From the IMG/VR virus record IMGVR_UViG_3300020202_000064, positions 30,000-93,999 of that record: a stretch of DNA of 64,000 nucleotides; one strand, written 5' to 3'. The notes under the pieces were generated by a model that ran no database searches, was not told where the DNA came from, and saw only the letters and a program-made list of their open reading frames with translations. Source of the DNA: a virus. The stretch's first letter is position 1, and each line of letters begins with the position of its first letter. The position numbers and the translations under genes are program-made. Positions 10,447 to 26,685 of this stretch are shown here, one piece after another.

Positions 10447-10560
10447 CTAAGCCCTTTTTTTTGGATGCTACCATTACATTAGAGCGGCTTCCAACTCCGC
10501 TTGCCGACTCGAACGGCTCTCCTTGTTTCGTAGACAATTTTTGTTTGCTGTATGGGCTAA
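10447..10560 (-). ncRNA. Y-RNA-like (CAGC-motif) RNA with permuted tRNA module
   Basis: TTAGCCC-ATA-CAGCAA...GCCG-TTCGAGT-CGGC (T arm), AGCGG-loop-CCGCT (closed acceptor), ATGT-AATGGTA-GCAT (D arm)...GGGCTTAG. Confidence 0.8.
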
Positions 10561-10566
10561 TGGAAG

Positions 10567-10644
10567 TGGAGTTGACGGAGGCACTCGAAACCTCATGATA
10601 TCCTCTTTACAAGAGAGGTGCTTTTCCTCTTAAGCCACGTCAAC
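10567..10644 (-). tRNA. tRNA-Thr(TGT)
   Basis: CCTCT-CTTGTAA-AGAGG; GTTGACG/CGTCAAC-TCCA. Confidence 0.9.
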
Positions 10645-10703
10645 GTTAAATCGATACAAAATTTCGTGTAATCTAATTCGAGCCTAAATAAAGGATTCGA
10701 ATT

Positions 10704-11102
10704 ATGAATATTAAAGAACAATGTCTGAAACTAAAATCAGAAAATCCAAAAATGTATTATAAAGAAATCGCAAAGATTGTCGGGTGTCAACCAAGCACTG
10801 TTTGCTATCATTTGAATGAAGACACGAGAAAAAATTACCGACATCGCCAATCTAAAAACAGAAGAATTAATAATAATGCATTAAAAAGTGTTAACGGCGG
10901 TAAATGTAAACTTTGTGGTTACTGCAAATCTTTGTCCGCTCTGCATTTTCATCATTTAGACCCAGATACGAAAACCGATGAAGTTTCAAGAATATTGAGA
11001 ACGCGCGGAAAATTAGCAGCCACGAACGAAGCAAAAAAATGTATTCTTATTTGTGCTAATTGTCATCATGAAATCCACGACGGATTAATAAAATTAGAAT
11101 GA
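10704..11102 (+). CDS. HNH homing endonuclease with HTH
   Basis: GGKCKLCGYCKSLSALHFHHLDP...KCILICANCHHEIH. Confidence 0.88.
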   Translation: MNIKEQCLKLKSENPKMYYKEIAKIVGCQPSTVCYHLNEDTRKNYRHRQSKNRRINNNALKSVNGGKCKLCGYCKSLSALHFHHLDPDTKTDEVSRILRTRGKLAATNEAKKCILICANCHHEIHDGLIKLE

Positions 11103-11104
11103 AA

Positions 11105-11179
11105 TGGAGTCCCGTATCGAACTTGAATCGATTTATTCGCGTTACGAATGCGAGGCATCACCATCAATGCTTACAGGAC
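11105..11179 (-). tRNA. tRNA-Thr(CGT)
   Basis: TCGCA-TTCGTAA-CGCGA; GTCCTGT/ACGGGAC-TCCA. Confidence 0.85.
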
Positions 11180-11337
11180 GAAAAATTATTTTCTTTGGCG
11201 ATTTCTAAATATGATTTTTCGCCGGGTTTTTGCTGTATAAAATAATCCAACACCCTTGCTATTTCAAGGGGGTCTGTTCCTCGCTCAACCGAAGTAATTG
11301 TTAACTCCAATAGTTCCTTTTTCTTTTGATTATTCAT
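11164..11337 (-). CDS. small hypothetical protein
   Basis: MNNQKKKELLEL... fills the spacer between two tRNAs. Confidence 0.45.
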   Translation of the reverse strand: MNNQKKKELLELTITSVERGTDPLEIARVLDYFIQQKPGEKSYLEIAKENNFSSCKH

Positions 11338-11340
11338 AGA

Positions 11341-11417
11341 TGGCGCGACCAGCCCGATTCGAACGGGCACTAAAGCTACTTAGAAGGAAGCTTGACTTTC
11401 CAATTGCCGATGGTCGC
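11341..11417 (-). tRNA. tRNA-Arg(TCT)
   Basis: GCTTC-CTTCTAA-GTAGC; GCGACCA/TGGTCGC-GCCA. Confidence 0.88.
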
Positions 11418-11422
11418 AAAAA

Positions 11423-11653
11423 TTATTTATCGATTCTACGGATGGATTGATGTTCCTTAACGCGCATTTTGTCAAGTTCTTTCTGACTATAAATTTTGCG
11501 CACTGCTACACCAACATATTTCTTTGGCAGAAAACCAATTGCACAATGTAAACCGATGCGAAATGGAATCTCCGCAATCAACCTTTCGCTTTCTCGCTTG
11601 GCGGCGCTTTCCTCAAATTCGCCAATATTATCATCTACCATCCAATTTTTCAT
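11423..11653 (-). CDS. hypothetical protein
   Basis: 76 aa ORF exactly filling a tRNA spacer. Confidence 0.55.
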   Translation of the reverse strand: MKNWMVDDNIGEFEESAAKRESERLIAEIPFRIGLHCAIGFLPKKYVGVAVRKIYSQKELDKMRVKEHQSIRRIDK

Positions 11654-11654
11654 A

Positions 11655-11749
11655 TGGTGGTTCCTGTCAGAATCGAACTGACGCTCGGCGGCAATCTACC
11701 GCATACAGGTTATAAATCTGTCGGTGCTCTCCAATTACACTAAGGAACC
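11655..11749 (-). tRNA. tRNA-Ile(TAT) with long variable arm
   Basis: ACAGA-TTTATAA-CCTGT then GCGGTAGATTGCCGC V-arm; GGTTCCT/AGGAACC-ACCA. Confidence 0.88.
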
Positions 11750-11870
11750 AAGCGAACCGTTTGCTTGAAGGCACTTTTACCCATCTACCCACAAACTTAA
11801 TTTTGCACCACGGTTCGACAGACAACTCACCCTCACATAACAGGTATTCTTCTGTGAGGGGACTAGCAAA

Positions 11871-11948
11871 TGGCATCCACGGTGAGCCTTGAACTCACAT
11901 ATGACCAACTTGAGAGGTTGGTGACTTTGCCAATTTGTCAACGTGGAC
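11871..11948 (-). tRNA. tRNA-Glu(CTC)
   Basis: CCAAC-CTCTCAA-GTTGG. Confidence 0.88.
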
Positions 11949-11960
11949 AAAAGGTCCAAC

Positions 11961-12224
11961 TTAATGAACTGATTTATCAGAAGGATTTTCTATACTTCTT
12001 TGAATTACTTTTGCACTTAGTAAGGTTAGCAAATAACTACCTAACGTTGCACCTACACTCGCGGGTATTTCCACAAGCGCGCCCGTCTTAATACAGGCGA
12101 ATAACCAGCCGCCGCAGATAGTTGTAAGAATCAGCATCGTACCAAGGAACACAACCAAACGTGTCGTGGAAGGGGTGTCAGGGGCTTCTTCCAAAGCCTT
12201 GCCTAACCAAGTAAAAAAGTTCAT
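11961..12224 (-). CDS. small two-TM membrane protein (holin-like)
   Basis: PSTTRL followed by two hydrophobic helices; GTGTAA motif upstream. Confidence 0.6.
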   Translation of the reverse strand: MNFFTWLGKALEEAPDTPSTTRLVVFLGTMLILTTICGGWLFACIKTGALVEIPASVGATLGSYLLTLLSAKVIQRSIENPSDKSVH

Positions 12225-12259
12225 AATCTGAATTACACGTAAGAATCAATCATTTAGCA

Positions 12260-12342
12260 TGGTGGTCAAGGTGGGACTCGAACCCACAAGCCGAAGCATA
12301 TGCACCTCAAGCATACGTGTATGCCAATTTCACCACATGACC
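12260..12342 (-). tRNA. tRNA-Leu(GAG)
   Basis: TATGC-TTGAGGT-GCATA, V-arm GCTTCGGC. Confidence 0.92.
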
Positions 12343-12381
12343 ATAACGGATTTTAACGTAGAAAGCCGCAAACGCACAATA

Positions 12382-12660
12382 TCATGTCCAATCCCAAGCG
12401 TTATCTCTTGGTTCTCTGGGTAAATTAACTTCTTCCTCGTCTATATTTCCCGCGCGTAGGTTTTTTAGTTCCTGATTGCGCTCGGCGCGACGGGCGCGCT
12501 CTCTCATTTGTTTGTGCCATTTTGGCGATTTATCCCAACGCTTTTTATCGCGAGTAAATTTCCATTCTGGCGTATTGTCAACAAGCGGTTCTCCCCACAT
12601 CATTATAGTGGGGCGCTTGCCACGTAGTTTCCTATCGTCAAAACGGCGTGTTCTGCTCAT
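12382..12660 (-). CDS. basic hypothetical protein
   Basis: MSRTRRFDDRK...AWDWT; likely start 12660. Confidence 0.6.
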   Translation of the reverse strand: MSRTRRFDDRKLRGKRPTIMMWGEPLVDNTPEWKFTRDKKRWDKSPKWHKQMRERARRAERNQELKNLRAGNIDEEEVNLPREPRDNAWDWT

Positions 12661-12700
12661 AGGAAGAAGCCTTTCGGCTGAGGTTTGTATTGGTAGAAGA

Positions 12701-12780
12701 TGGGGTATACGACGGGGCTTAAACCCGCAGGGACCAAGCTTCACAGGCTTGTGCGTCTAATCAATTTCGCCACGTATACC
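12701..12780 (-). tRNA. tRNA-His(GTG)
   Basis: CAAGC-CTGTGAA-GCTTG; G-1:C73 extended acceptor. Confidence 0.88.
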
Positions 12781-12784
12781 ATAA

Positions 12785-12912
12785 CTAAGTTCATTTTTAT
12801 ATTGTCGCCTAAACCAGACTAGGCTACTTCCGCATATTGTAAATGGTGCGGAAGGTGGGATTTGAACGCCACGTATAACAATTTCCATGAAATTGGATGC
12901 TGTTAGAACTTA
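12785..12912 (-). ncRNA. Y-RNA-like (CAGC-motif) RNA with permuted tRNA module and internal ACCA
   Basis: TAAGTTC-TAA-CAGCAT...GTGGCGTTCAAATCCCAC (T arm), CTTCCGC-ACCA-TTTACAATAT-GCGGAAG (acceptor), TA-GCCT-AGTCTGGTTT-AGGC (D arm)...GAACTTAG. Confidence 0.85.
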
Positions 12913-12992
12913 AATTGGTTTTTGATTTTATTATAAATCGTCATTTTTCTTCGTGTAATCTTTTATGGCAGGACCATAAGGATTCGAAAAAG

Positions 12993-13718
12993 ATGATTAA
13001 ACTATTTACTGATAAAGAATTTAATTCGGCTAAATCGCGGGATTTACTACCTCTTAAATGCGAAAAATGTGGAAAAACTTTCCACAAGGCAAAACACAGA
13101 ATACAGGATGCCTTATCGACCAAGACGAAGCTTTTCTGGAAATTTTGTTCTAAACGATGCAGTGATGAACACTTCGAAACATCCATAGAAGTCGAATGTT
13201 GCCAGTGCAAACGGAAAACATTCAAAACCCCGTCAGAGATAAAAAAAGTAAGACGCCCATTTTGTTCACAATCTTGTGCAGCTTTATATAACAACACGCA
13301 TAAAACACACGGAACATCTCGTTCAAAACTAGAAAAATGGTTGGAATCTAAATTAATAACTGAATATCCCGAATTAGAATTTCATTTCTCAAGAAAAGAT
13401 GCTATCAACGGTGAACTAGATATTTATATTCCATCATTAAAATTGGCATTTGAGTTAAACGGGATTTTCCATTATGAACCAATTTATGGTAAGGAACAAT
13501 TAATCAAAATGCAGAACAACGATAAACGAAAGTTCCAAGCGTGTTTAGAAAATGGAATAGAACTATGTATTATAGATACAACGTCTCAAAAGTATTTTAA
13601 AGAAAATACCTCTTTAAAATTTCTTAATATCATCCGAGATATAATCGAAAGAAAAATGGCAGGACATGTAGGTGAGGAACCCACTTCTTCGCGTTTGGAG
13701 TGCGAGGCACATACCTAA
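12993..13718 (+). CDS. homing endonuclease: Zn-ribbon repeats plus Vsr/DUF559-like PD-(D/E)XK domain
   Basis: CEKCGK...FCSKRC, CCQC...FCSQSC; ELDIYIPSLKLAFELNGIFHY; C-terminus overlaps the antisense of tRNA-Trp. Confidence 0.8.
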   Translation: MIKLFTDKEFNSAKSRDLLPLKCEKCGKTFHKAKHRIQDALSTKTKLFWKFCSKRCSDEHFETSIEVECCQCKRKTFKTPSEIKKVRRPFCSQSCAALYNNTHKTHGTSRSKLEKWLESKLITEYPELEFHFSRKDAINGELDIYIPSLKLAFELNGIFHYEPIYGKEQLIKMQNNDKRKFQACLENGIELCIIDTTSQKYFKENTSLKFLNIIRDIIERKMAGHVGEEPTSSRLECEAHT

Positions 13719-13732
13719 TATACCAATGTCCT
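13657..13732 (-). tRNA. tRNA-Trp(CCA), atypical T-loop
   Basis: TCGCA-CTCCAAA-CGCGA; AGGACAT/ATGTCCT-GCCA; T-loop TTCCTCA. Confidence 0.8.
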
Positions 13733-13738
13733 ATAAAG

Positions 13739-13900
13739 TCATTTCTGACCATCTAAATATTTCTTGAACGCATCTTGATTTTTAATCGCCGCCCGAAGTT
13801 CTGGCGTCGTATCATCAATATACAACGGACATTGTACTGGTTCGTGATAACAGCCTTCGGCCAATATTTCTTTTATTTCTTCAATAGTCGTCTGATTCAT
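13739..13900 (-). CDS. small hypothetical protein
   Basis: MNQTTIEEIKEIL... in a tRNA spacer. Confidence 0.5.
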   Translation of the reverse strand: MNQTTIEEIKEILAEGCYHEPVQCPLYIDDTTPELRAAIKNQDAFKKYLDGQK

Positions 13901-13903
13901 AAT

Positions 13904-13980
13904 TGGTGCAAATGGAAGAAATCGAATCCTCAGTATAACTACGTTCGAAGCGTAGGTGGCTCTCCTGTGCCAGCATTTGC
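13904..13980 (-). tRNA. tRNA-Arg(TCG), atypical D arm
   Basis: CTACG-CTTCGAA-CGTAG; GCAAATG/CATTTGC-ACCA. Confidence 0.78.
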
Positions 13981-14011
13981 GTGTTTTAATTTTAGCTACG
14001 TATGTATTAAA

Positions 14012-14088
14012 TGGTGGGGGCCGAGCGAATTGAACGCTCACATCAAGATTTTCAATCTAGCATGCTCACCAGTTTACATCAAACCCCC
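14012..14088 (-). tRNA. tRNA-Phe(GAA)
   Basis: CTAGA-TTGAAAA-TCTTG. Confidence 0.85.
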
Positions 14089-14237
14089 AAAGGCTAGCAG
14101 CCACCCCACAACTTCGGGTATGTGACACCTGAAAGTCGGTTTCGCGCTATGCGCTAATCAAACACCGAACCTTTCCTTTATTGTAGTCCTTGTGGACTAT
14201 CCTTTCCTTTTCCTTACCTACGGTATTTAACCATAGG

Positions 14238-14423
14238 TTATGCGCGGTTACCAGCCGCGACTTTATATCCCGGTAACCAGCCGGGAAATTTGTGAAATTT
14301 ATACATAAACGGCGGATTTAATTCGTCATTCATTCTGTTACAGTGTTCTCTGAGTAATCTTTTTAAATATACAGACTTAATCCATTGGTCTATAAACTCG
14401 CGCGCTTTATCTTGTTTATTCAT
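14238..14423 (-). CDS. hypothetical protein
   Basis: 61 aa ORF in a spacer. Confidence 0.5.
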   Translation of the reverse strand: MNKQDKAREFIDQWIKSVYLKRLLREHCNRMNDELNPPFMYKFHKFPGWLPGYKVAAGNRA

Positions 14424-14541
14424 GAATATACTGGTGTGTCTTTTCGTTGGTCTCCGACTAAAATCAATATTGCTTTGACCGCCTCAGTGAAGATATTCTA
14501 TTCATCGGGTTTTCTGCGACCCACTCTCCTTTTATATTCAT

Positions 14542-14618
14542 TGGTAGTCGCAATGGGATTCGAACCCATACTGAAAAGTTTTTAAGACTTTTGCTTCTGC
14601 CGGTTGAGCGATGCGACC
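14542..14618 (-). tRNA. tRNA-Leu(TAA), short variable arm
   Basis: AAAGT-CTTAAAA-ACTTT. Confidence 0.88.
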
Positions 14619-14623
14619 ATAGC

Positions 14624-15187
14624 TTATTTCAGAGGGAATGCAACTGTATTTGTTGGGGCGCTATTGCCAGAAGAATTATAAGCGAACACACGATACCAAT
14701 ATGTACCAACGCCTATATTCGTATCAATAAATGTATTTATGTTAGCTGAAGTCGTACCTATAACAACAAAATTTTCCCCATCATTACTACGCTCTATTTT
14801 AAAACCAGTTTCGTTGCTGGAATTATCACTCCAAGTTAATGTTACTGACGATGGGACGCTTCTAACACTCACACTTTCTAATTTTAAATATGTATATAAA
14901 CTGTCAATTTTTCGCAATACTGTTTGTAAATCTGTATTTGTATTATTTTGATTTTCCTTCAAAGCCGCTAACTCTTGCAATGCCAAATCTCTCTCTTGTT
15001 GAGCTTGCGCTACAAGCTTTTCTTGATACACAGCATATAAATGCCATGCTATAATCTGAGAATTTTTTGCATCCCACGCGGATTGTGCTGGATAAGCGGG
15101 GCGAGGAACGGGGGTAATAGATGTAACTTGAGCTAATAAAACACTCGCCAAAGCAACAACGAAGAAACTAATAAGAATTTTTTTCAT
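14624..15187 (-). CDS. secreted fibronectin type III domain protein
   Basis: Signal peptide MKKILISFF...; LTWSDNSSNETGFKIERS...YWYRVFAYNSSGNS. Confidence 0.85.
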   Translation of the reverse strand: MKKILISFFVVALASVLLAQVTSITPVPRPAYPAQSAWDAKNSQIIAWHLYAVYQEKLVAQAQQERDLALQELAALKENQNNTNTDLQTVLRKIDSLYTYLKLESVSVRSVPSSVTLTWSDNSSNETGFKIERSNDGENFVVIGTTSANINTFIDTNIGVGTYWYRVFAYNSSGNSAPTNTVAFPLK

Positions 15188-15196
15188 AAAACAACT

Positions 15197-15272
15197 TGGT
15201 GCGATATAGGAGATTTGAACTCCTACCCCATGCTTGGAAGGCGCGTGTGCTGCCATTAAACACTAATATCGC
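15197..15272 (-). tRNA. tRNA-Gly(TCC)
   Basis: Loop CTTCCAA; GCGATAT/ATATCGC-ACCA. Confidence 0.88.
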
Positions 15273-15282
15273 AAAATGGGTA

Positions 15283-15438
15283 TTAGCCCAAGATAAATCC
15301 GAGTACGAAAGCAACTACTGTCGAAATTAACGTCACTTTCATGCTAACCTGCTTGGCAAGAAACTGCTGAGTTTCCTCTTTGGCTTCATGCTTTAAGCGC
15401 GCTTTTGCCTCTTCAACGTGTTCTTTTAAATCGCTCAT
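15283..15438 (-). CDS. small tail-anchored membrane protein (51 aa)
   Basis: Manual translation: MSDLKEHVEEAKARLKHEAKEETQQFLAKQVSMKVTLISTVVAFVLGFILG*; GTGTAA motif upstream. Confidence 0.55.
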   Translation of the reverse strand: MSDLKEHVEEAKARLKHEAKEETQQFLAKQVSMKVTLISTVVAFVLGFILG

Positions 15439-15586
15439 AGTATTGTTATGTTCAATCTAAATTACACTTTAAACTAGGGGCTTTACTCTAGCCCGACGGT
15501 ACAACAATCCACTGTTGCCATTGCGCCGCTTTTACATTAGCGGCAGAAAGCCCGCACATTTAAGCTGGCGGGGACTAACTATAGTC

Positions 15587-15662
15587 TGGTGGGCATGGCA
15601 GGAATCGAACCCGCAATCTTCACCGTGTAAAAGTGCCGCGTTAACCGTTACGCTACACGCCC
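15587..15662 (-). tRNA. tRNA-Val(TAC)
   Basis: Loop TTTACAC; GGGCGTG/CATGCCC-ACCA. Confidence 0.92.
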
Positions 15663-15664
15663 AT

Positions 15665-16029
15665 TTTCTATTCCAGTTTAGCCGCGATTCTGGTTTATCT
15701 CTACATTTCTCTAATCGGCTTTCGCCAATTCCCACCGTCAATAGATGGGTGCATCAACCCGGCCTCATCGATAAGCACTAATCTCAGCCTGTTTGACTTG
15801 CTACTACCATGAGGTATTAACGAATACGTGATAGGCTATGGTTTGTAAGCCATGCCGAGTATTCTCCCTATCGGTTGCTTTGTAGTCGCGAACTTCCTCT
15901 GACTTATGGAATGCGGGGTTCCTCTCTTTCGAGTTTGGCATACCGCATCTTACGTCCCTTTACGCACCATTCTCAGGCCGTGGCCTGATTAAAGGTTTCA
16001 CCTTTCGTCAGCGTAGAGTCGAATAGAAA
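15665..16029 (-). ncRNA. rnpB: RNase P RNA (compact, reduced S-domain)
   Basis: P1 TTTCTATTC/GAATAGAAA; CR-I GAGGAAGTTCGCGAC; GTAGCAAG; CR-IV TAGAGAAATG; CR-V ACCAGAATCGCGGCTA; P4 pairing (T)CGCGA/TCGCGG. Confidence 0.85.
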
Positions 16030-16081
16030 TTTTGCACCCCGGACGTAACAATCTATAGTCATTGGAATCCGGCCCGTCTCC

Positions 16082-16567
16082 CTATAGTGTTTGTGCGGCC
16101 ACCCTCGACCGTAAAGTAAATTCATAATGAAGCATCGTTGAACGGGACAATAACCCCGGCGACACTTCCCAAGCTTTCGTATTATTTAGTAAAGAAATTC
16201 CTGCGTGTTCAAACGCCGCATAAATCAATTCAGAGCAAAACCACTTGTCTTTCGAACCGCCCGATTCAGATTCACGAGAAAGGAAACGAAGTACCATGGT
16301 AATGTCGTACTTCTTACCCACTTGAGCATAAAGGAACTGGCTGATTTTACGGAATTGTTCCGACGTAACTTCAGTCGAATACATATCAATATATTCGTCC
16401 TTCTTAAATTTGTACTTCTGGAATTTACGAACACCGTAAAAACGGGTGGCCTCAATTACGTCTTTTTCCAATGATATACTTACATGTGAATATTTACTAC
16501 GAGTTTGCCAACGAATAATTTTATCAAAAATAGAGTTAGCTGAATGTAATCCAATGTAGATTTTCAT
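16082..16567 (-). CDS. permuted papain-like NlpC/P60 amidase (YiiX/YaeF-like)
   Basis: SKYSHV...GKKYD...KWFCSELI...VSPG. Confidence 0.85.
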   Translation of the reverse strand: MKIYIGLHSANSIFDKIIRWQTRSKYSHVSISLEKDVIEATRFYGVRKFQKYKFKKDEYIDMYSTEVTSEQFRKISQFLYAQVGKKYDITMVLRFLSRESESGGSKDKWFCSELIYAAFEHAGISLLNNTKAWEVSPGLLSRSTMLHYEFTLRSRVAAQTL

Positions 16568-16587
16568 ACATTAAGTTACACTAAATT

Positions 16588-16665
16588 TGGCGCGGGAGGT
16601 GGGCTTCGAACCCACAACCTTGAAATTTAGAGTTTCCTGCTCTGAACCAGTTGAGCTACTCCCGC
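16588..16665 (-). tRNA. amber suppressor tRNA (anticodon CTA)
   Basis: GCGGGAG-TA-GCTCAACTGGTTCAGAGC-A-GGAAA-CTCTAAA-TTTCA-AGGTT-GTGGG-TTCGAAG-CCCAC-CTCCCGC-GCCA; canonical cloverleaf. Confidence 0.9.
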
Positions 16666-16724
16666 AATAAGCCCGAATAAATCGGGCACTAAATTACTAT
16701 TTCTACGATGTATCCTATTTCAAA

Positions 16725-17003: not shown

Positions 17004-17082
17004 GTCAGTATATATTACACTTATTTTTGTTGTTCGTGCAAACTAAAATCTTCAATTTTACATCAAACCGAAGGTTTGAAAA

Positions 17083-20121: not shown

Positions 20122-20471
20122 TGGTGGAGATGGAGGGCTTCGATTCCCTCGTGTCCGATACTTCGTATTTCCATTCTTGTTACATGCTTAGAATCACTTG
20201 ATAATATCGTTTTCGGTTTGATTCTACCAAACGACATTTGACGGTTATATAATCAGCTTCTATCAACCAGTCAATTTTAAAGCTGATTCCCGATGATGAC
20301 GAGTGGCCCAATTTATCGGCGGTCAATTGGAACTCGGTTAGCCGCAATTAAGCAGCGTAAGCATAAACTTCTGTTTTCTTAGCGTTTATTTTGTGATACG
20401 TTTTACGACGTGGCATCATTGTCGGCATGGAATGTAAACCTACGTATTGGATAGAATCCAAATACATCCCC
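20122..20471 (-). ncRNA. ssrA: tmRNA
   Basis: GGGGATG...CATCTCC-ACCA (G3:U70); resume context ATAAAC-GCT; tag AKKTEVYAYAA*. Confidence 0.92.
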
Positions 20472-20482
20472 AAAAGAAATAT

Positions 20483-20560
20483 TGGTGCGCCCCGAGGGAG
20501 TTGAACCCTCACGATGGTCCGCTTAAAAGGCGGCTGCTCGTCCACTGTAGCTTGAGGCGC
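20483..20560 (-). tRNA. tRNA-Lys(TTT)
   Basis: CCGC-CTTTTAA-GCGG. Confidence 0.85.
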
Positions 20561-20569
20561 ATATTAAAA

Positions 20570-20644
20570 TGGAGTCCCTAGCGGCTTACGAGACCGCGTA
20601 TGAATCTTTTGCAGAGATTTGCATTTCCTCTTTGCTATAGGGAC
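20570..20644 (-). tRNA. tRNA-Cys(GCA)
   Basis: AATCT-CTGCAAA-AGATT; U73. Confidence 0.8.
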
Positions 20645-20652
20645 ATAAAAAT

Positions 20653-20755
20653 TGGCGGAAGAGGCAAGATTCGAACTCGCACGCGCTATGGTTTACATAT
20701 CGCCCTCGCATTTCAAGTGCGCTGCCGCTAGGCCATATCCTCGGCTTACTCTTCC
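20653..20755 (-). tRNA. tRNA-Ser(TGA)
   Basis: CGCA-CTTGAAA-TGCG; enlarged D loop and V-arm. Confidence 0.85.
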
Positions 20756-20757
20756 AT

Positions 20758-20815
20758 CTAAGCGGGCGCAATTTTCCCTTTCGGGATGGCGATTTATATT
20801 TTGCTGTATCCGCTT
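20758..20815 (-). ncRNA. Y-RNA-like (CAGC-motif) RNA, short
   Basis: AAGCGG-ATA-CAGCAA...CCC-GAAA-GGG...CCGCTTAG. Confidence 0.75.
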
Positions 20816-20873
20816 GTTGCTTTAATTGCGCGAAATCTTAAAACCTTCGGTTTTATTATAAATCGAAGATTTA

Positions 20874-20950
20874 TGGTGGCCGAGGGTGGGTTTGAACCAC
20901 CAACCGTTCGTCTATCAAACGAATGCACTAGCCAATTGTGCTACACGGCC
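20874..20950 (-). tRNA. tRNA-Ile(GAT)
   Basis: TTCGT-TTGATAG-ACGAA. Confidence 0.88.
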
Positions 20951-20955
20951 ATTAT

Positions 20956-21048
20956 CTAAGCTCTATTATTGTGCGGGCATCGAATCCCGCTCAATTCGTG
21001 TTTTTGAAACGAATTTTTATCCATTTAAGGTTTTGCTGTGAGAGCTTA
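20956..21048 (-). ncRNA. Y-RNA-like (CAGC-motif) RNA with a T-arm-like hairpin
   Basis: TAAGCTC-TCA-CAGCAA...GCGGG-ATTCGATG-CCCGC...GAGCTTAG. Confidence 0.78.
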
Positions 21049-21088
21049 TTGTGGAGCTTACTCCACCGTTCCAGCAAAGCTGGAAATA

Positions 21089-21145
21089 CTAAGCGCATTT
21101 TGTTTTTCATTAATCATTGAATTTTTAATTCGCTGTTAGCGCTTA
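21089..21145 (-). ncRNA. Y-RNA-like (CAGC-motif) RNA, minimal
   Basis: TAAGCGC-TAA-CAGCGA...A-rich...GCGCTTAG. Confidence 0.75.
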
Positions 21146-21328
21146 TAAGGAAACGAAAACTTGTTATGTTTTTGGCTTCTGATTCGAAGCATATTTGACG
21201 AAACGTTTATAATTTTTTAAATCGCGGCTAGCGTCTGTGCGCCGGGAATATGGACCGTAATCTAAATCCCCCCATTGATTTTTAAACCAAAACTTTCCAT
21301 CTCGCTTGAAAATTTTCATACTCTAAAA

Positions 21329-21403
21329 TGGCGGGACCAACGAGTGCTACCCTCGCTTCTGTATCGTGACAGGATACCGCTTTTGTTGATAAGCTATGGC
21401 CCC
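21329..21403 (-). tRNA. tRNA-Asp(GTC)
   Basis: GTATC-CTGTCAC-GATAC; atypical D and T loops. Confidence 0.8.
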
Positions 21404-21510
21404 AAAATTACAAAGGTCACTCCATCCCTTTGAATGGCAGTTTATAAACGTGGAAACGTTTAAAGGTTTTATTTTTCGCCGGTTCTGCTTTACCCTGAAC
21501 CTAGAGAAGT

Positions 21511-21589
21511 TGGTAGCGCGTGTGGGGCTCGAACCCACGCATGACCGATTTGAAAGACCGGTGACTTGAACCTGCTTGTCAAACGCGCC
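21511..21589 (-). tRNA. tRNA-Glu(TTC)
   Basis: CCGGT-CTTTCAA-ATCGG. Confidence 0.9.
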
Positions 21590-21725
21590 GTAAAGATATT
21601 CTTTTGTATCCATCTATTCGGATTAACAACAACCCCAATGTTCGATACAAATAAACTACAATAACAGTTGTTTTTGATATATTATTATAGAAGAACTGAG
21701 GTGGAAATAAGTGTAATTACACTAT

Positions 21726-22301
21726 ATGTCCACTAAAATATTATCTGAATTTTCTCGATGTGACTCCTTTGGAACGCAGCGTAAATACGTTTCTTACCAT
21801 TGTACTCGATGCGGTGTCGAACATTCCAAACCAAAACGTAACTTTTGGTTAGATAGACCCAACTTCTGTTCCGTTAACTGTGCAAGAGAACATCAAAAAA
21901 TTTTGCATTCATTTGAAGCTGAGTGCGCATGGTGCGCAAATAAATTCCACAAAAAGATATCAACAAAGGGAAATAGTCGTTCCGGTTTATATTTTTGTTC
22001 CAGACTATGCAAAGACAAGGCTCAAAGCTTGGAAGGTGGTATAAAGGAAATACAGCCAAATCATTACGGAGAAATTAAAAAGAATTATCGCGAAACTGCA
22101 TTTAAAAATCTGCCAGCACGCTGTAATCGATGCGACTTTGCTGCTTACCCAGAGATACTAGAGGTTCATCACAAAGACCATAATCACCATAATAATACCG
22201 TAGATAATTTGGAAATTTTATGTCCAAACTGCCACGAAATTCATCACTTCGAAACGAAATCGGGTAAATATGCCAAAAGTGGTGGACTGGAAGGGGATTG
22301 A
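21726..22301 (+). CDS. HNH homing endonuclease with Zn-ribbon repeats
   Basis: FCSVNC, FCSRLC repeats; CNRC...LEVHHKD...NLEILCPNCHEIHH; ends inside the antisense of tRNA-Ala. Confidence 0.88.
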   Translation: MSTKILSEFSRCDSFGTQRKYVSYHCTRCGVEHSKPKRNFWLDRPNFCSVNCAREHQKILHSFEAECAWCANKFHKKISTKGNSRSGLYFCSRLCKDKAQSLEGGIKEIQPNHYGEIKKNYRETAFKNLPARCNRCDFAAYPEILEVHHKDHNHHNNTVDNLEILCPNCHEIHHFETKSGKYAKSGGLEGD

Positions 22302-22355
22302 ACCCTCCACACGAACATTGCAAATGTCTGTCGCCTCCGAGGAACATGCCAGCCC
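22280..22355 (-). tRNA. tRNA-Ala(TGC)
   Basis: Loop TTTGCAA; G3:U70. Confidence 0.85.
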
Positions 22356-22358
22356 AAC

Positions 22359-22435
22359 TGGTGTTTCCACTCGGAATTGAACCAAGATGATACAGTTTAG
22401 GAAACTGTTGCCTTATCCAGTTAGGCGATGGAAAC
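22359..22435 (-). tRNA. tRNA-Arg(CCT)
   Basis: ACAGT-TTCCTAA-ACTGT. Confidence 0.9.
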
Positions 22436-22436
22436 G

Positions 22437-22670
22437 TTAACTCAAAATTACACCCAAATCATTAACTTCGTTTTCAAACTCGTCGAACGTCGGTTCAATA
22501 TCTTCCATTGAGGCATCGATTCTTTTCTGCTTCATGCGACGATACTGAGTGTGACAGACTGCCAATCTTTGTTTATCATTACCATATTCCTTTTGCATCA
22601 AATCCGAATCCATACAACGATTGATGAATTCAGTCTGTTTTTCATTGGACTTTGGTGTAGGCAGTGGCAT
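22437..22670 (-). CDS. small phage hypothetical protein
   Basis: MPLPTPKSNEKQTEFINRCM...QRLAVC; GTGTAA motif upstream. Confidence 0.7.
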   Translation of the reverse strand: MPLPTPKSNEKQTEFINRCMDSDLMQKEYGNDKQRLAVCHTQYRRMKQKRIDASMEDIEPTFDEFENEVNDLGVILS

Positions 22671-22700
22671 ACACTATATTACACTAAATGTCACCTAAAA

Positions 22701-22787
22701 TGGTGGTCCCGGTGGGATTTGAACCCACAGTGCCCGAAGGCGGCAGATTTACAGTCTGCTACGTCTACCAATTGACGCGTCGTGACC
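22701..22787 (-). tRNA. tRNA-Tyr(GTA)
   Basis: GCAGA-CTGTAAA-TCTGC, V-arm GCCTTCGGGC. Confidence 0.88.
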
Positions 22788-22945
22788 ATCATACGAACTA
22801 CGGTACATATGATTTATCATCACCCCAATGCCTTGGGCCGATTTTTTGCGAGGTTGTACATTCCTCCGTTCGTATTCTGTATTAGGGATGCCTCCCTTTT
22901 AACATATGAGAGATAGGTGAGTTAATTACACTCACTTATCTTTGA

Positions 22946-23039
22946 CTAAGTATATTTTTATCACCCCATAAATTTGAAATGGCGGGGTGTGAAGGAATTG
23001 AACCTTCTGTTTCCAGAAAAGTCATGCTGTTAATACTTA
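22946..23039 (-). ncRNA. Y-RNA-like (CAGC-motif) RNA with permuted T arm/acceptor and internal GCCA
   Basis: TAAGTAT-TAA-CAGCAT...GAAGG-TTCAATT-CCTTC-ACACCCC-GCCA-TTTCAAATTTAT-GGGGTG...ATACTTAG. Confidence 0.82.
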
Positions 23040-23040
23040 A

Positions 23041-23117
23041 TGGTGCGGTCAGAGGGACTCGAACCCCCACTAAAAGATTCGTAATCTTTCGTGCTAATTC
23101 CATTACACTATGTCCGC
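23041..23117 (-). tRNA. tRNA-Arg(ACG)
   Basis: AAAGA-TTACGAA-TCTTT. Confidence 0.92.
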
Positions 23118-23167
23118 ATATCGACGGGCCTACCCGCCGTGGTTTAACCAATTTTTAGGAAAAATAA

Positions 23168-23290
23168 CTAAGTTCGTTTTTTTCGTTGTTCTGCTTTAAA
23201 CTAACTTGCTGAAATTGAAATTGGTGGCAAGTGAAGTGCGCTACGCTCCATCTCCGTCTTATGTGATGATTTAACCGCTGTTAGAACTTA
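23168..23290 (-). ncRNA. Y-RNA-like (CAGC-motif) RNA with permuted tRNA module and internal ACCA
   Basis: TAAGTTC-TAA-CAGCGG...ACTTGCC-ACCA-ATTTCAATTTC-AGCAAGT-TA-GTTT-AAAGCA-GAAC...GAACTTAG. Confidence 0.8.
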
Positions 23291-23291
23291 A

Positions 23292-23365
23292 TGGTCCACC
23301 TAGAAAGATTCGAACTTTCACCTTACCGCCCCAAACGGTAAACGCTGCCTTTACGCTATAGATGG
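23292..23365 (-). tRNA. tRNA-Pro(TGG)
   Basis: TACCG-TTTGGGG-CGGTA; C1:G72. Confidence 0.88.
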
Positions 23366-24024: not shown

Positions 24025-24074
24025 ATTGTCTGTATAGGATATTACACGTAAAAAGGGAGAATTTGCAACAAAAC

Positions 24075-24911
24075 TTACAATTTTCTCAATTTAAACTCTT
24101 CAATCTTCTCATCAGGAACAAGGAGAATGTCCTGTCGCCATTCTGAATAGATGGTAAGCGGCTCAAGGCAATAGCCACAATACATACTGTAACCAATGTA
24201 ATCCTGCAATTGTTTGATTGCCATATGCGTGCGCGGGAACCACTCGGCATGAATCACGGGACGATGTTCCTTAATAATATCCCTGAAACTCCACAAGATG
24301 TGGAAGTCATGCCCCTCAGTATCGATTTTAATAAACGAGATATCGGCAAAGTTAACCTGTGGCCCAAGAAACTTTTCAAAACTGACAGCGCGAATCAAAC
24401 GGGGTACTGTGTAAGTTCCAACCCAAGAATTCGTAGAAGGATGCCCGCCATTATCATCGGTGGCCGAATATAGAAATTGGTGGATACCTTCATGTTCCAT
24501 AACGGCATAAGGACAACCAACAATATTCATACTTGGGTTAAGCCCCAAATTGATATTAAGTTGTGACGAAAAGCTCGGACTACATTCGAAAGCAAATACT
24601 TTACCACCATCCGTGAGGATAGAAATGGCCAAACTCGTGTCACCATCGTAGGCACCAATATCAACCGCCACTGAACCAGAACGAACGAATCGATGATTGA
24701 CGTTGATGAAATTATTTACGAACTCTGAGTATGGAGTTGGTAACGAGCCGCGTTTCTGTGGCGCTTTATGACAGAAGGCTATCTTATAATCTTTATCTTT
24801 ATAATTTACCTTAAATTTCTCAACATGAGTCAGGATATCATTACCTTTTAATTCCTCGATGTGAGGAAGACCATCAATATAATTCTTTTCGTTGACGTAA
24901 GGGGGAGACAT
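24075..24911 (-). CDS. FkbM-family methyltransferase
   Basis: VDIGAYDGD, VFAFE, FIKIDTEGHD. Confidence 0.88.
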   Translation of the reverse strand: MSPPYVNEKNYIDGLPHIEELKGNDILTHVEKFKVNYKDKDYKIAFCHKAPQKRGSLPTPYSEFVNNFINVNHRFVRSGSVAVDIGAYDGDTSLAISILTDGGKVFAFECSPSFSSQLNINLGLNPSMNIVGCPYAVMEHEGIHQFLYSATDDNGGHPSTNSWVGTYTVPRLIRAVSFEKFLGPQVNFADISFIKIDTEGHDFHILWSFRDIIKEHRPVIHAEWFPRTHMAIKQLQDYIGYSMYCGYCLEPLTIYSEWRQDILLVPDEKIEEFKLRKL

Positions 24912-24918
24912 AATAAAA

Positions 24919-25065
24919 TTATTGAGCCATCAGACCACCAAGCGCAATGCCGCCGATTAGAGTAAATCCAATGTCGTTTTGAATACCACCAGCAATGATG
25001 AACACAGCCGCAATTAATCCTAAAATCACGGCCCTAAACAAATCGTGTAGTTTCTTCTGCGTCAT
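24919..25065 (-). CDS. small membrane protein (48 aa)
   Basis: Manual translation: MTQKKLHDLFRAVILGLIAAVFIIAGGIQNDIGFTLIGGIALGGLMAQ*. Confidence 0.5.
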   Translation of the reverse strand: MTQKKLHDLFRAVILGLIAAVFIIAGGIQNDIGFTLIGGIALGGLMAQ

Positions 25066-25069
25066 AAAT

Positions 25070-25098
25070 AATGAAACCCGTCGCTGTTATACGACGGG
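25070..25098 (-). terminator. probable intrinsic terminator of the Ro60-like gene
   Basis: CCCGTCG-TATAACAG-CGACGGG followed by TTTCATTATTT. Confidence 0.55.
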
Positions 25099-25109
25099 AA
25101 TCAGTTTCC

Positions 25110-26645
25110 TTAAGCCTTAATCGGTTCGTACCTTTCGGTATTCACCGTCTGCAAGAACATGTCCCATGGGGAAGTAATCTTGCCACTCATAATTGTCTTG
25201 AGGATGCTTGGGGAAGCACCCGAACACAACATGACACCCTTTTCGTCAAACTTCACCGGACTGTCTGAGTAGGCGTTAACCTGCCAGAATACAATATCAG
25301 GAAGTTTATATCCTGCTTGCGCATATTGCCGCTTAATTGCTTCGTGGTTTGTTCCACCATTAACACAATTAAACTGCATATCAGATATGATAACAATCTT
25401 TGATGGCATTTCAGACTGTGGCACGTTATTTTGGATAGCGTGGCGAAGAATTGCTTGGAACGAAGATTGTACATTCGTGGAGCCGCCCCAATCAGCCGAA
25501 TTAAGGTTAATCAATTTCTCCTTGAGATTTCCGCCAACAACCTTCTGCAAACGGGAGTCGTCTGAGAAAGTTAGGAAATAACCGTTGAATGCGCCGCGAT
25601 TACGCTCTGCCGTATAAAGGGCGAGTGAAACGCAGATATCGATTGGGCTTACACTTTCGCCATAACGAACACCCAAATTTCCCATGGAGCCGGAAACGTC
25701 CGCAACAACAAGGATATTGTCGTTCTTCCCTTCTGTGTAGTCGGGAAGTGCATTCCATTGCGCTTCGATTGTACGAAGGTCGTTACCGTCCTTCTGTGTA
25801 ATTCCGCGCATCAAATCATACGGATATAGCGTTGCAGAATTAATCTTCGCTTCGCCCTTCTCGACCTTGGTCAAGAACTTCTCATAGCGCTTTGGGTCGT
25901 GCTTGTTAAAGGCAGACTTGTAAATAAGCGCAGCACGAGATGGTACTTGCTCAAAGTTAATCTTGCTCCATTCACCACTGGTCATCAACCGTTCAACGAT
26001 ACCGATTTCCTCACGAAGACCGGACAACATCTTACGATATGCCTTTGGTGACATTTTCATTGCGGCGCGAACCTTTTCAGCCAAACGACGTGTCGTCGCG
26101 CTGGAAGCCTGCGCAGATGGTGCCCATTTTGCAGCCAATGTAATCGCTTCGCCCTTTGCCTTCTTATAAGCATCGGTCTTCAATTGGGACGCAACGAAAA
26201 CCAATGCATCCTTCTCCAATGGAGTGCCCTCCAAGGATTCAAGAACATTGTCGAAACGGGTATATTCAGGAACGTGCTGAATAAGCTTCTTTGCCACAGG
26301 CGCGTCATTCTTCGCGAGCCAGTTAAGACCCAAGCGAAAAAGACGACGTTCACCCTGTCCGCCGCGCACGTCACCCAAATAGAATAACGTCCTTAGTGCA
26401 AGGGTTTTATCTTCTGCATATGCGGCGCTGAAAAGCTTTGTAACTTCGGCATCGGCTTGATTGCGCAATGCGCCACCTCGCGAGAACAAGTCCAGCAAGG
26501 ATGTGCCAGTGGTTGAATGTGATACTGCGCCGTTTAAGGTTGTAGTATCTTTCGTTTGCATAGCGCTAATAAGCGCATTCTGCTTCTTAGGGGTTGCAGT
26601 GTTACGGGTAAACTGCCCCAATGAGTTTCTCTTTATATTCTTCAT
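25110..26645 (-). CDS. Ro60/TROVE-like helical + vWA protein (DUF2828-like)
   Basis: T.NGA.SHSTTG..LLDLF; DVRGGQGERRLF; AAKWAP; INFEQVPSRA; LYPYDL; MIDAS VADVSGSM; DWGGSTN; ISDMQF; IVFWQV. Confidence 0.88.
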   Translation of the reverse strand: MKNIKRNSLGQFTRNTATPKKQNALISAMQTKDTTTLNGAVSHSTTGTSLLDLFSRGGALRNQADAEVTKLFSAAYAEDKTLALRTLFYLGDVRGGQGERRLFRLGLNWLAKNDAPVAKKLIQHVPEYTRFDNVLESLEGTPLEKDALVFVASQLKTDAYKKAKGEAITLAAKWAPSAQASSATTRRLAEKVRAAMKMSPKAYRKMLSGLREEIGIVERLMTSGEWSKINFEQVPSRAALIYKSAFNKHDPKRYEKFLTKVEKGEAKINSATLYPYDLMRGITQKDGNDLRTIEAQWNALPDYTEGKNDNILVVADVSGSMGNLGVRYGESVSPIDICVSLALYTAERNRGAFNGYFLTFSDDSRLQKVVGGNLKEKLINLNSADWGGSTNVQSSFQAILRHAIQNNVPQSEMPSKIVIISDMQFNCVNGGTNHEAIKRQYAQAGYKLPDIVFWQVNAYSDSPVKFDEKGVMLCSGASPSILKTIMSGKITSPWDMFLQTVNTERYEPIKA

Positions 26646-26648
26646 AAA

Positions 26649-26685
26649 CTAAGTAATTTTTAATTGTTAATGCTGACATTACTTA
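26649..26685 (-). promoter_or_regulatory. minimal CAGC-motif stem in the 5' leader of the Ro60-like gene
   Basis: TAAGTAA-TGT-CAGCAT...TTACTTAG-TTT-ATG; same architecture as the 11 ncRNA units. Confidence 0.75.

What the first reader, a model, noticed from the sequence alone, without database searches (positions are those of the whole stretch)
10447..26685. Phage Ro60/TROVE-like protein with an array of 11 Y-RNA-like ncRNAs sharing a non-canonical co-varying CAGC stem
Seen in sequence: eleven minus-strand units between tRNAs (starting at 10447, 12785, 18278, 19180, 19437, 19588, 20758, 20956, 21089, 22946, 23168) share TAAGnnn-NNN-CAGCR...nnnCTTAG, with small outer-stem variants at 10447, 18278 and 20758. 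The three inner stem pairs co-vary (TTC/GAA, CCC/GGG, CGC/GCG, TAT/ATA, CGG/CCG, CTC/GAG). The 3-nt spacer and CAGC are fixed, while the interiors (57-147 nt total) are unrelated. A 12th copy precedes the Ro60-like DUF2828/vWA gene at 25110-26645. Established: Ro60/Rsr binds the terminal stem of Y RNAs, whose other end is a variable effector module. The bacterial YrlA Rsr-binding motif I recall (GNCGAA-type) is not this one. Inference: a modular RNP system in which one phage protein loads many RNA cargos, possibly tRNA decoys or tethers for RNA decay/repair enzymes. I cannot confirm that it is undescribed.
Basis: partly seen in the sequence, partly recalled or inferred. Interest (0 to 1): 0.95.

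Follow-up and report, generated by a model that had tools for sequence, protein, structure and literature searches.

The report
Phage Ro60-like protein with handle RNAs
A large soil phage scatters twelve small RNA genes with one shared "handle" through its tRNA cluster, next to a gene for a ring protein shaped like the RNA-binding protein Ro60; this pairing recurs in many unrelated phages, and I found no paper or Rfam family describing it.

Summary
Twelve minus-strand units between 10447 and 26686 share a 7-bp terminal stem, a 3-nt spacer and an unpaired CAGC(A/G). Their interiors are unrelated to each other. Three carry a permuted tRNA-like module, and a fourth has only an acceptor-like stem-loop.

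ORF 25110-26645 matches Pfam DUF2828 and DUF7788, not TROVE. Its model nevertheless folds like Ro60 over its full length (Z 25).

In 166 distant phage and metagenome loci, the same handle sits on the gene's strand beside this gene. Its density there is about 20-50 times background. No other neighbouring gene is conserved with it.

The RNAs match no Rfam family; YrlA scores 16 bits against a cut-off of 69. They lack the bacterial GNCGAA motif. Their design matches the published pattern of the Dictyostelium Class I RNAs.

Best reading (0.65): these are Y-RNA-like partners of a Ro60-like protein, released by tRNA processing. Binding and function are inferred, not shown. No RNA-seq run was available.

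This scan has noted the same family on other DNA before, in at least 39 genomes. I found only two papers that speculate about such RNAs and none that describes them.

The parts
25110..26645 (-). Gene for a 511-aa Ro60-like ring protein (Pfam DUF2828 + DUF7788/vWA). The start is ATG 26645 or TTG at codon 9.
   Evidence: Pfam matches: DUF7788 at 1.4e-42 and DUF2828 at 2e-37; no TROVE match. The AF2 model has pLDDT 91.7. The top 12 Foldseek hits are all Ro60. VIA-align gives Z 25.0 over 414 residues to 2i91_A. The MIDAS residues D316, S318, S320, T390 and D422 are invariant in 62 homologues.
26649..26686 (-). U0: handle-only mini unit (38 nt) that ends 3 nt before the ATG of the gene. It is a likely 5' leader and a possible operator.
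   Evidence: Found. A promoter-like site at 26724-26695 would place the transcript start at the unit's 5' end. The relative L098 has a 43-nt mini unit in the same place. In 30 of 141 loci a unit ends 30 nt or less before the predicted start codon.
23168..23291 (-). U1 (124 nt). It starts 1 nt after tRNA-Pro. Its cargo has an acceptor-like stem-loop with ACCA.
22946..23040 (-). U2 (95 nt). It starts 1 nt after tRNA-Arg(ACG). Its cargo is a T-arm plus a closed acceptor stem with G-CCA.
21089..21146 (-). U3 (58 nt), with a small hairpin as cargo.
   Evidence: It scores 52 bits with the mini-unit model R1, but it is one of the 15 sequences R1 was built from, so that score is by construction.
20956..21049 (-). 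U4 (94 nt). It ends 5 nt before tRNA-Ile(GAT). Its cargo includes a T-arm-like hairpin.
20758..20817 (-). U5 (60 nt). Its outer stem is CAAG instead of TAAG. It ends 2 nt before a tRNA-Ser(TGA)-like gene.
19588..19730 (-). U6 (143 nt). It starts directly after tRNA-Ser(GGA).
19437..19584 (-). U7 (148 nt), 3 nt after U6.
19180..19259 (-). U8 (80 nt). It lies between an insert-bearing tRNA-like gene and tRNA-Asn, 6 nt before the latter.
18278..18402 (-). U9 (125 nt), a variant handle: GACGCCC-ACA-CAGC...GGGCATC. It ends 5 nt before tRNA-Gln(CTG).
12785..12913 (-). U10 (129 nt). It ends 5 nt before tRNA-His. Its cargo is a full permuted tRNA mimic, in the order T-arm, acceptor 3' strand + A + CCA, linker, acceptor 5' strand, D-arm.
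10447..10560 (-). U11 (114 nt), a variant outer stem (TTAG). It lies between tRNA-Thr(TGT) and tRNA-Leu(CAA). Its cargo is a T-arm, a closed acceptor-like stem and a D-arm-like hairpin.
6992..23365 (-). The tRNA array that hosts U1-U11: 31 ARAGORN tRNAs, about 4 further Rfam tRNA matches, and a tmRNA.
4585..5589 (-). RNA ligase gene just beyond the end of the array. This is context only and may not be part of the system.
   Evidence: Pfam RNA_ligase at 2.1e-18. A homologue lies within 10 kb of the DUF2828 gene in only 9 of 166 loci.

Best explanation
The twelve units are genes for small non-coding RNAs of one family. I call them handle RNAs. Each folds so that its 5' and 3' ends pair into a 7-9-bp terminal stem. 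A single-stranded box, N3-CAGC-A/G, follows the 5' strand. An often A-rich stretch precedes the 3' strand. Between them sits a freely variable cargo: a hairpin, unknown folds, or a circularly permuted tRNA mimic.

U1-U11 are most likely co-transcribed with the tRNAs. They would be set free by the same enzymes that trim the tRNAs, because nine of eleven abut a tRNA gene within 0-6 nt. The handle is most likely the binding site of the Ro60-like ring protein encoded at 25110-26645. Each RNA would then form a Ro/Y-RNA-type particle that presents a different cargo.

By analogy with Rsr-Y RNA-PNPase, the cargos would tether or divert tRNA-binding enzymes or nucleases during infection. U0 sits on the protein's own translation start and may give feedback control.

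Shown here: the RNA family, its covarying stem, the protein fold, and the genomic linkage. Inferred: expression, processing, binding, and every downstream function.
For: (1) The family is real. The 5' half of the handle occurs 7 times against 0.03 expected, always with a matching 3' strand. The stems covary while the box stays fixed.

(2) The protein is Ro60-like. All 12 top Foldseek hits are Ro60 (E 1.9e-9, TM 0.58-0.61). Z is 25.0 with 414 aligned residues, against about 10 for vWA-only matches.

(3) Linkage. In 86 viral loci, handles with stems of 8 bp or more reach 2.39 per kb in the 500 nt upstream of the gene on its strand. The opposite strand has 0.05 per kb, and four control cores have 0.05-0.12 per kb. 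141 of 166 loci have at least one unit within 1.5 kb. These include Bacillus phage PJN02, where there are no tRNAs nearby, Synechococcus phage B23 and Listeria phage cka15.

(4) None of the six neighbouring genes I tested travels with the protein: they occur in 0-9 of 166 loci.

(5) Close relatives (56-63% identity) keep the same TTAAG/CTTAG handle, a mini unit before the gene, and units wedged between tRNAs.

(6) U2, U10 and U11 have the YrlA-like order T-arm, closed acceptor, then D-arm (the D-arm in U10 and U11 only) (Chen 2014, PMC4201824).

(7) In published work, the Bas63 homologue gp130 counters the ppl defence (PMC11482910). The Listeria homologue CKA15_055 lies within 2 kb of three very abundant non-coding transcripts (PMC12282133).
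Against: There is no expression data for this phage; no RNA run was listed. There is no binding data for any member of the family.

The handle shares no sequence with known Ro60 sites: GGUCCGA in animals, and GNCGAA or CGAA in bacteria and phage phiLo.

The protein fails the TROVE Pfam model.

The one abundant Listeria region whose coordinates are published (26,236-26,727) has no handle. That paper therefore does not yet prove that handle units are expressed.

The units used were chosen by a scanner that demands pairing. Their 100% pairing is by construction, and only the enrichment and the variety of pairs count as evidence.
Confidence: 0.65

Rival explanations
1. The units are punctuation or processing signals of the long tRNA precursor, for example sites for a host or phage endonuclease. 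They would have no link to the Ro60-like protein.
For: Nine of eleven units abut tRNA genes within 0-6 nt. Relatives show the same placement.
Against: In Bacillus phage PJN02, five units lie in a tRNA-free gap directly before the DUF2828 gene. In many loci the units sit only before the gene. A mere cleavage signal would not need 40-130 nt of varied, partly tRNA-like cargo. U0 is not next to any tRNA.
Confidence: 0.08
2. The RNAs are real, but they act through another partner, either a host RNA-binding protein or a nuclease. The DUF2828 gene is merely co-regulated with them or acts on their products.
For: No binding data exist. In Dictyostelium, the look-alike Class I RNA DdR-21 binds an RRM protein directly (CIBP/Rnp1A).
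Against: The linkage to DUF2828 holds across phages of Firmicutes, Cyanobacteria and Proteobacteria and across uncultured soil phages, which share no host factor. The outer handle sequence changes with the protein's lineage: TAAG/CTTA in this clade, TAGA/TCTA and AAGAC/GTCTT elsewhere.
Confidence: 0.15
3. The handle is only a cis-acting leader or operator that controls translation of the DUF2828 mRNA.
For: U0 ends 3 nt before the ATG. In 30 of 141 loci a unit ends 30 nt or less before the predicted start.
Against: Eleven units in this window lie 1.8-16 kb downstream of the gene, among tRNAs, and cannot act in cis. This reading can be true of U0 as an addition to the main explanation.
Confidence: 0.05
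4. The units are selfish miniature repeats or targets of the HNH endonucleases that sit in the array.
For: HNH or zinc-finger ORFs lie on the + strand inside the array.
Against: The interiors are unrelated. All units lie on one strand. The stems covary instead of being copied. The same design is kept at 35-45% protein identity in loci without such ORFs.
Confidence: 0.02

Closest known systems
Bacterial and phage Ro60 (Rsr, TROVE + vWA) with YrlA/YrlB, Yrn1 and phiLo Yrl1/Yrl2 Y RNAs (Chen 2014, PMC4201824; PMC12135203)
   Same: Both pair a ring protein (HEAT-repeat ring plus a vWA domain with a MIDAS site) with small RNAs encoded next to it on the same strand. In both, the RNA ends pair into a stem, a conserved single-stranded motif sits on the 5' side, and the module is variable. 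That module can be a permuted tRNA mimic with a T-arm, a closed acceptor stem and a D-arm.
   Different: The protein belongs to another sequence family (DUF2828/DUF7788): there is no TROVE Pfam match and identity to solved Ro60 structures is 11-18%. The RNA motif is CAGC(A/G), not GNCGAA or CGAA. The YrlA covariance model scores 16 bits against a cut-off of 69. Here there are up to twelve RNAs per genome, spread through a tRNA array, and most lack a tRNA-like part.
Dictyostelium Class I RNAs (Aspegren 2004; Kjellin 2021, PMC7919456; search pattern in PMC5054030)
   Same: Both have a short terminal stem joining the 5' and 3' ends. A conserved unpaired box lies directly 3' of the 5' strand and ends in ACAGCAA. 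The published pattern is GTTGRC-CTTACAGCAA...GTCAACTG. The rest of the RNA is variable, there are many gene copies, and the stems show compensatory changes.
   Different: Class I RNAs were reported as unique to Dictyostelia. They are 42-65 nt long and have their own promoters. Their known direct binder is an RRM protein. Whether Dictyostelium has a DUF2828 protein could not be settled here. The likeness may be convergence.
Phage T4 stable RNAs species 1 and 2 (rnaC, rnaD) in the tRNA cluster
   Same: They are small stable RNAs of unknown function encoded inside a phage tRNA cluster, directly beside tRNA genes.
   Different: They have no handle: there is no terminal stem followed by N3-CAGC near the 5' end.

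Membership tests
Ro60 / TROVE protein family | Full-length fold: a HEAT-repeat ring closed by a vWA domain | tested here: met
   Foldseek's top 12 hits are all Ro60, with TM 0.58-0.61. VIA-align gives Z 25.0, rmsd 3.8 A and 414 aligned residues to 2i91_A.
Ro60 / TROVE protein family | Match to the Pfam TROVE model (PF05731) | tested here: not met
   There is no TROVE hit at E <= 0.01 for the protein. There is none at E <= 10 in the whole record, while the control genomes do score. A profile search of PDB sequences also found nothing. Some UniRef names of eukaryotic DUF2828 proteins read 'TROVE domain-containing'.
Ro60 / TROVE protein family | MIDAS motif in the vWA domain (DxSxS, T, D) | tested here: met
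   D316, S318, S320, T390 and D422 are invariant in 62 homologues.
Ro60 / TROVE protein family | Binds Y RNA on the outer surface and RNA 3' ends in the central hole | not testable with these tools
   This needs biochemistry or a solved complex.
YrlA-type bacterial Y RNA (Rfam RF02553) | Reaches the family's covariance-model score | tested here: not met
   The best score is 16.4 bits against a cut-off of 69, and that hit overlaps a tRNA. No unit gave a hit at E <= 5.
YrlA-type bacterial Y RNA (Rfam RF02553) | GNCGAAN0-1G motif near the 5' end | tested here: not met
   All units carry N3-CAGC-R in that place.
YrlA-type bacterial Y RNA (Rfam RF02553) | tRNA-like domain with a T-arm, a closed acceptor-like stem and a D-arm | tested here: inconclusive
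   It is present in U10 and U11, partly in U2 and U1, and absent from the other eight units.
YrlA-type bacterial Y RNA (Rfam RF02553) | Encoded within a few kb of the Ro60 gene on the same strand | tested here: met
   This holds for the DUF2828 gene here and in 141 of 166 loci.
Dictyostelium Class I RNA | Short terminal stem plus an 11-nt box (CCUUACAGCAA) next to the 5' strand | tested here: inconclusive
   The window's boxes read (U/A)(A/U)ACAGC(A/G)A. The family consensus is tACAGCAA, which shares 7-8 of 11 positions, including the positions the paper calls invariant. No Class I model was at hand to score them.
Dictyostelium Class I RNA | Length 42-65 nt, own upstream DUSE promoter, restricted to Dictyostelia | tested here: not met
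   Units here are 38-148 nt and lie in a phage tRNA operon.

The most novel reading that the evidence does not exclude
The handle RNAs and the DUF2828 ring protein form an ancient ribonucleoprotein. It is a second branch of the Ro/Y-RNA particle and spans phages, giant viruses, bacteria and eukaryotes. On this reading the Dictyostelium Class I RNAs are its eukaryotic members. The protein of unknown function DDB_G0281243, which was pulled down with Class I RNA DdR-21, would then be the amoeba's DUF2828 homologue. That would turn an existing pull-down into the first experimental evidence for the pairing. In this phage, the twelve-member array would serve as a set of tRNA-mimic baits working with the phage's RNA ligase against host tRNA-cutting defences.
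Probability: 0.1. Interest if true: 0.9.

Novelty: new variant of a known kind. Interest (0 to 1): 0.72.

Why it matters
Ro60 and its Y RNAs are a classic RNA-surveillance particle whose bacterial and viral roles are still poorly understood. This looks like a second, sequence-unrelated version of the same design.

It is found in well-studied, culturable phages: Felix O1-type phages, Listeria P100/A511, Enterococcus, Staphylococcus and Campylobacter phages, cluster L mycobacteriophages and T4-like cyanophages. In these genomes the RNAs lie in stretches annotated as empty or as tiny ORFs.

It gives a concrete candidate for the speculated Y RNAs of Bas63 gp130, a counter-defence protein, and of Listeria phage CKA15. 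It also offers a natural series of one handle with many cargos for studying how such particles choose their targets.

It also shows most clearly that the units are cut out along with tRNAs.

Tried and rejected
Close relatives had to come from the search for related loci instead.
- MAFFT could not anchor both ends of units of unequal length (A1, A2, A4, A5). Only A6, with similar ends, was usable.
- Covariance model R1, built from mini units, recovers only U3, one of its own seed sequences, and weakly U5 in the window. A single-hairpin model cannot span the long cargos, so detection rests on my own scanner with controls.
- No RNA holder was listed for the window, only two soil DNA runs.
- Megablast of the region against GenBank phages found no relative.
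- The super-abundant non-coding region of Listeria phage CKA15 (26,236-26,727) has no handle. The text does not give coordinates for the paper's two other abundant regions.
- T4 rnaC and rnaD are not members.
- The search for a Dictyostelium DUF2828 protein was inconclusive. It covered the longer forms, the top 150 of a eukaryote profile, the names of the ten most AT-rich hits, and a Naegleria query. It found Naegleria, plants, fungi, Chromera and a pacmanvirus, but no Dictyostelium. The lists are cut at 120-150 rows.
- Avesson 2011 is not in the paper library.
- A candidate at 17303-17475 overlaps two tRNAs and was rejected as chance.

Full report
SETTING

The window is bases 30000-93999 of a 94-kb IMG/VR virus record that CheckV rates 46% complete. 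The only sequencing runs that hold it are two soil metagenomes. Its minus strand from 6992 to 23365 is a tRNA array. ARAGORN finds 31 tRNAs, Rfam adds about four more, and there is a tmRNA at 20122-20471. Replication and nucleotide-metabolism genes follow from 27.7 kb onward. Megablast found no close relative among GenBank phages.

THE OBSERVATION

A regex for AAG-n3-N3-CAGC...n3'-CTT returns ten exact units on the minus strand and one unrelated short match on the plus strand. Two more units are variants with one mismatch in the stem: 10447-10560 and 18278-18402.

A test that does not assume pairing uses the 5' half alone, TAAGNNNWWACAGCR. It occurs seven times, all on the minus strand inside the array, against 0.03 expected. 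All seven have the complementary 3' strand nearby.

The outer four pairs (UAAG/CUUA) are nearly fixed. The inner three take seven different complementary forms. The interiors share no similarity with each other.

CAGC is not in the stem. It lies 3 nt beyond the 5' strand and is mostly unpaired in the MFE folds. The sequence before the 3' strand is A-rich in most units.

The twelfth unit, U0 (26649-26686), is a bare handle of 38 nt that ends 3 nt before the ATG of the protein gene. A promoter-like site at 26724-26695 would start transcription at its 5' end.

A possible thirteenth, divergent unit lies at 11183-11248. It sits inside a plausible 53-codon ORF, so I leave it open.

PLACEMENT

Nine of eleven array units touch a tRNA gene. 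U1, U2 and U6 begin 0-1 nt after the CCA of tRNA-Pro, tRNA-Arg and tRNA-Ser. U4, U5, U8, U9, U10 and U11 end 2-6 nt before the next tRNA. This fits co-transcription with the tRNAs and release by the enzymes that trim them. That step is an inference.

CARGO

- U10 holds a complete permuted tRNA mimic in this order: T-arm with a canonical UUCAAAU loop, acceptor 3' strand, discriminator A, CCA, a 10-nt linker, acceptor 5' strand, D-arm.
- U11 has the same order without CCA.
- U2 has a T-arm plus a closed acceptor stem with G-CCA.
- U1 has an acceptor-like stem-loop with ACCA.
- The T-arm parts match the T-arm positions of the phage's own tRNAs.
- The other eight units carry hairpins or folds that match nothing in Rfam.

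This is the order described for YrlA (PMC4201824).

THE PROTEIN

ORF 25110-26645 matches Pfam DUF2828 and DUF7788 and weakly matches a vWA family. It does not match TROVE. A profile search against PDB sequences finds nothing.

An AlphaFold2 model built on 62 homologues has pLDDT 91.7. Its twelve best Foldseek matches are all Ro60, from Xenopus, human, Deinococcus and Thermus phage phiLo. VIA-align gives Z 25.0 over 414 residues to Xenopus Ro60. vWA-only matches stay near Z 10. The MIDAS residues are invariant.

The protein is therefore a full-length structural relative of Ro60 in a separate sequence family.

LINKAGE ELSEWHERE

The protein family is found in 705 GenBank phage records. These include Felix O1-type phages, Listeria P100/A511, Enterococcus, Staphylococcus, Campylobacter, Aeromonas and Vibrio phages, and cluster L mycobacteriophages. 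In the last group it is annotated 'Ro-like RNA binding protein'.

I fetched 166 loci around homologues of 35-63% identity and scanned them for stem + 1-3 nt + CAGC + matching strand. In 86 viral loci, the results for handles with stems of 8 bp or more were:

| Region scanned | Handles per kb |
|---|---|
| 500 nt upstream of the gene, same strand | 2.39 |
| Same region, opposite strand | 0.05 |
| Same region, four control cores | 0.05-0.12 |
| Just downstream of the gene | 0.9 |

141 of 166 loci have at least one unit within 1.5 kb. Together they hold 330 units, 294 of them distinct, with the consensus tTaAGg..C.tACAGCAAt.

Particular cases:
- Bacillus phage PJN02 has five units in a tRNA-free gap before the gene, and Synechococcus phage B23 has four units around it.
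- Listeria phage cka15 has three units at 25,248-25,599, behind a sigma-A-like promoter and just before CKA15_055.
- The closest relatives (56-63% identity) keep the TTAAG/CTTAG handle, a mini unit before the gene, and units wedged between tRNAs next to a tmRNA.

None of six neighbouring genes of this window travels with the protein. They occur in 0-9 of 166 loci.

One caution applies. The units were picked by a scanner that demands pairing. Their pairing rate proves nothing; the enrichment and the variety of pairs do.

COMPARISON WITH WHAT IS KNOWN

No Rfam family matches any unit at E <= 5. The YrlA model reaches 16 bits against a cut-off of 69. The bacterial and phage Ro60 motif GNCGAA/CGAA is absent.

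The full-text library holds no paper on DUF2828 in phages and none describing this RNA family. Two papers come close:
- PhageMaP found that Bas63 gp130, which has a Ro60-like fold and sits upstream of the tRNA genes, counters the ppl defence. Its authors guessed that some 'tRNA genes' are Y RNAs.
- The CKA15 study found its homologue in purified virions. It also found three very abundant non-coding regions within 2 kb upstream and proposed that they are Y RNAs. The one region with published coordinates lacks the handle. That paper therefore does not yet show that handle units are expressed.

Class I RNAs have a short terminal stem, an unpaired 11-nt box next to its 5' strand, and a variable remainder. 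The published search pattern is GTTGRC-CTTACAGCAA...GTCAACTG. That is the same design and the same ACAGCAA core.

None of the earlier notes I searched mentions the following lead. The pull-down with Class I RNA DdR-21 gave four proteins, one of which is DDB_G0281243, of unknown function. I could not find out whether it is a DUF2828 protein. The family exists in Naegleria, plants, fungi, Chromera and a pacmanvirus. No Dictyostelium sequence appeared in the truncated lists I could obtain.

T4's stable RNAs rnaC and rnaD are not members.

MECHANISM

I consider it most likely (0.65) that the handle is the binding site of the Ro60-like protein, and that each RNA forms a particle showing a different cargo.

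The rest is analogy. Rsr and Y RNA tether PNPase, and rsr-yrlA sits with the RtcB ligase in Salmonella. Here an RNA ligase (4585-5589) and a phosphatase-like gene (6334-6918) close the array. Long fused forms of the protein also exist, one of them with a 2'-5' RNA ligase domain. These facts point to RNA repair or protection of tRNAs. The ligase link is weak, however, at 9 of 166 loci.

U0 on the translation start, together with similar placement in 30 of 141 loci, suggests feedback control.

VERDICT

This scan has met the same family on other DNA many times, in at least 39 genomes. One such note was later checked, and what it saw stood.

This window adds four things:
- the clearest evidence for release by tRNA processing;
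- the leader unit on the start codon;
- the DDB_G0281243 lead.

Noticed in passing
window 16588-16665 (-): A tRNA with anticodon CTA, an amber-suppressor type that ARAGORN labels 'Pyl'. The long ORFs of the window read through normally under the standard code, so any TAG recoding would concern other genes.
   Followed up: no
window 19263-19400 (-): A tRNA-like gene (Rfam tRNA, 42.8 bits) with a roughly 65-nt insert in place of the anticodon arm and no encoded CCA. It lies directly before unit U8.
   Followed up: partly
window 20657-20755 (-) and 22283-22356 (-): Two tRNA-like genes that ARAGORN missed. The first reads as tRNA-Ser(TGA) with an odd D-arm. The second reads as a tRNA with a GCA anticodon. 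Both fall below Rfam's cut-offs.
   Followed up: partly
window 20830-20873, 18400-18440 and 19400-19432 (-): A second small repeated element: a pair of short hairpins (AAATC-TTC-GATTT, then AAACC-GAA-GGTTT or a variant). It occurs after tRNA-Ile, after tRNA-Gln and before the insert-bearing tRNA.
   Followed up: no
window 4585-5589, 6334-6918, 7806-8369, 24075-24911 (-): An RNA ligase, a dual-specificity-phosphatase-like protein and two methyltransferases (Methyltransf_24 and FkbM) flank the tRNA/handle array. This may be an RNA-repair or RNA-modification set.
   Followed up: partly
window 11183-11248 (-): A possible thirteenth unit with a different stem (GATTATTTT-ATA-CAGC-AAAA...AAAATAATT). 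It ends 4 nt before tRNA-Thr(CGT), but it lies inside a plausible 53-codon ORF.
   Followed up: partly
L178 (Listeria phage cka15, OR088597) 26,236-26,727: The phage's most abundant transcript region, published as the mis-annotated ORFs CKA15_059-061. It has no handle motif and matched nothing I looked at, so it may be another, unrelated non-coding RNA.
   Followed up: partly
proteins P0121-P0123: Long fused forms of the DUF2828 protein exist: one with a 2'-5' RNA ligase domain, one with a CCHC zinc knuckle, and one with a RecQ helicase. The last may be a gene-call fusion.
   Followed up: no
window 10704-11102, 12897-13718, 18580-19032, 21726-22301 (+): Four ORFs on the opposite strand inside the tRNA array. 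Three were scanned: 12897-13718 matches a zinc-finger family above Pfam's cut-off, and 18580-19032 and 21726-22301 match only weakly. 10704-11102 was not scanned. They are possibly homing-endonuclease-like genes.
   Followed up: no
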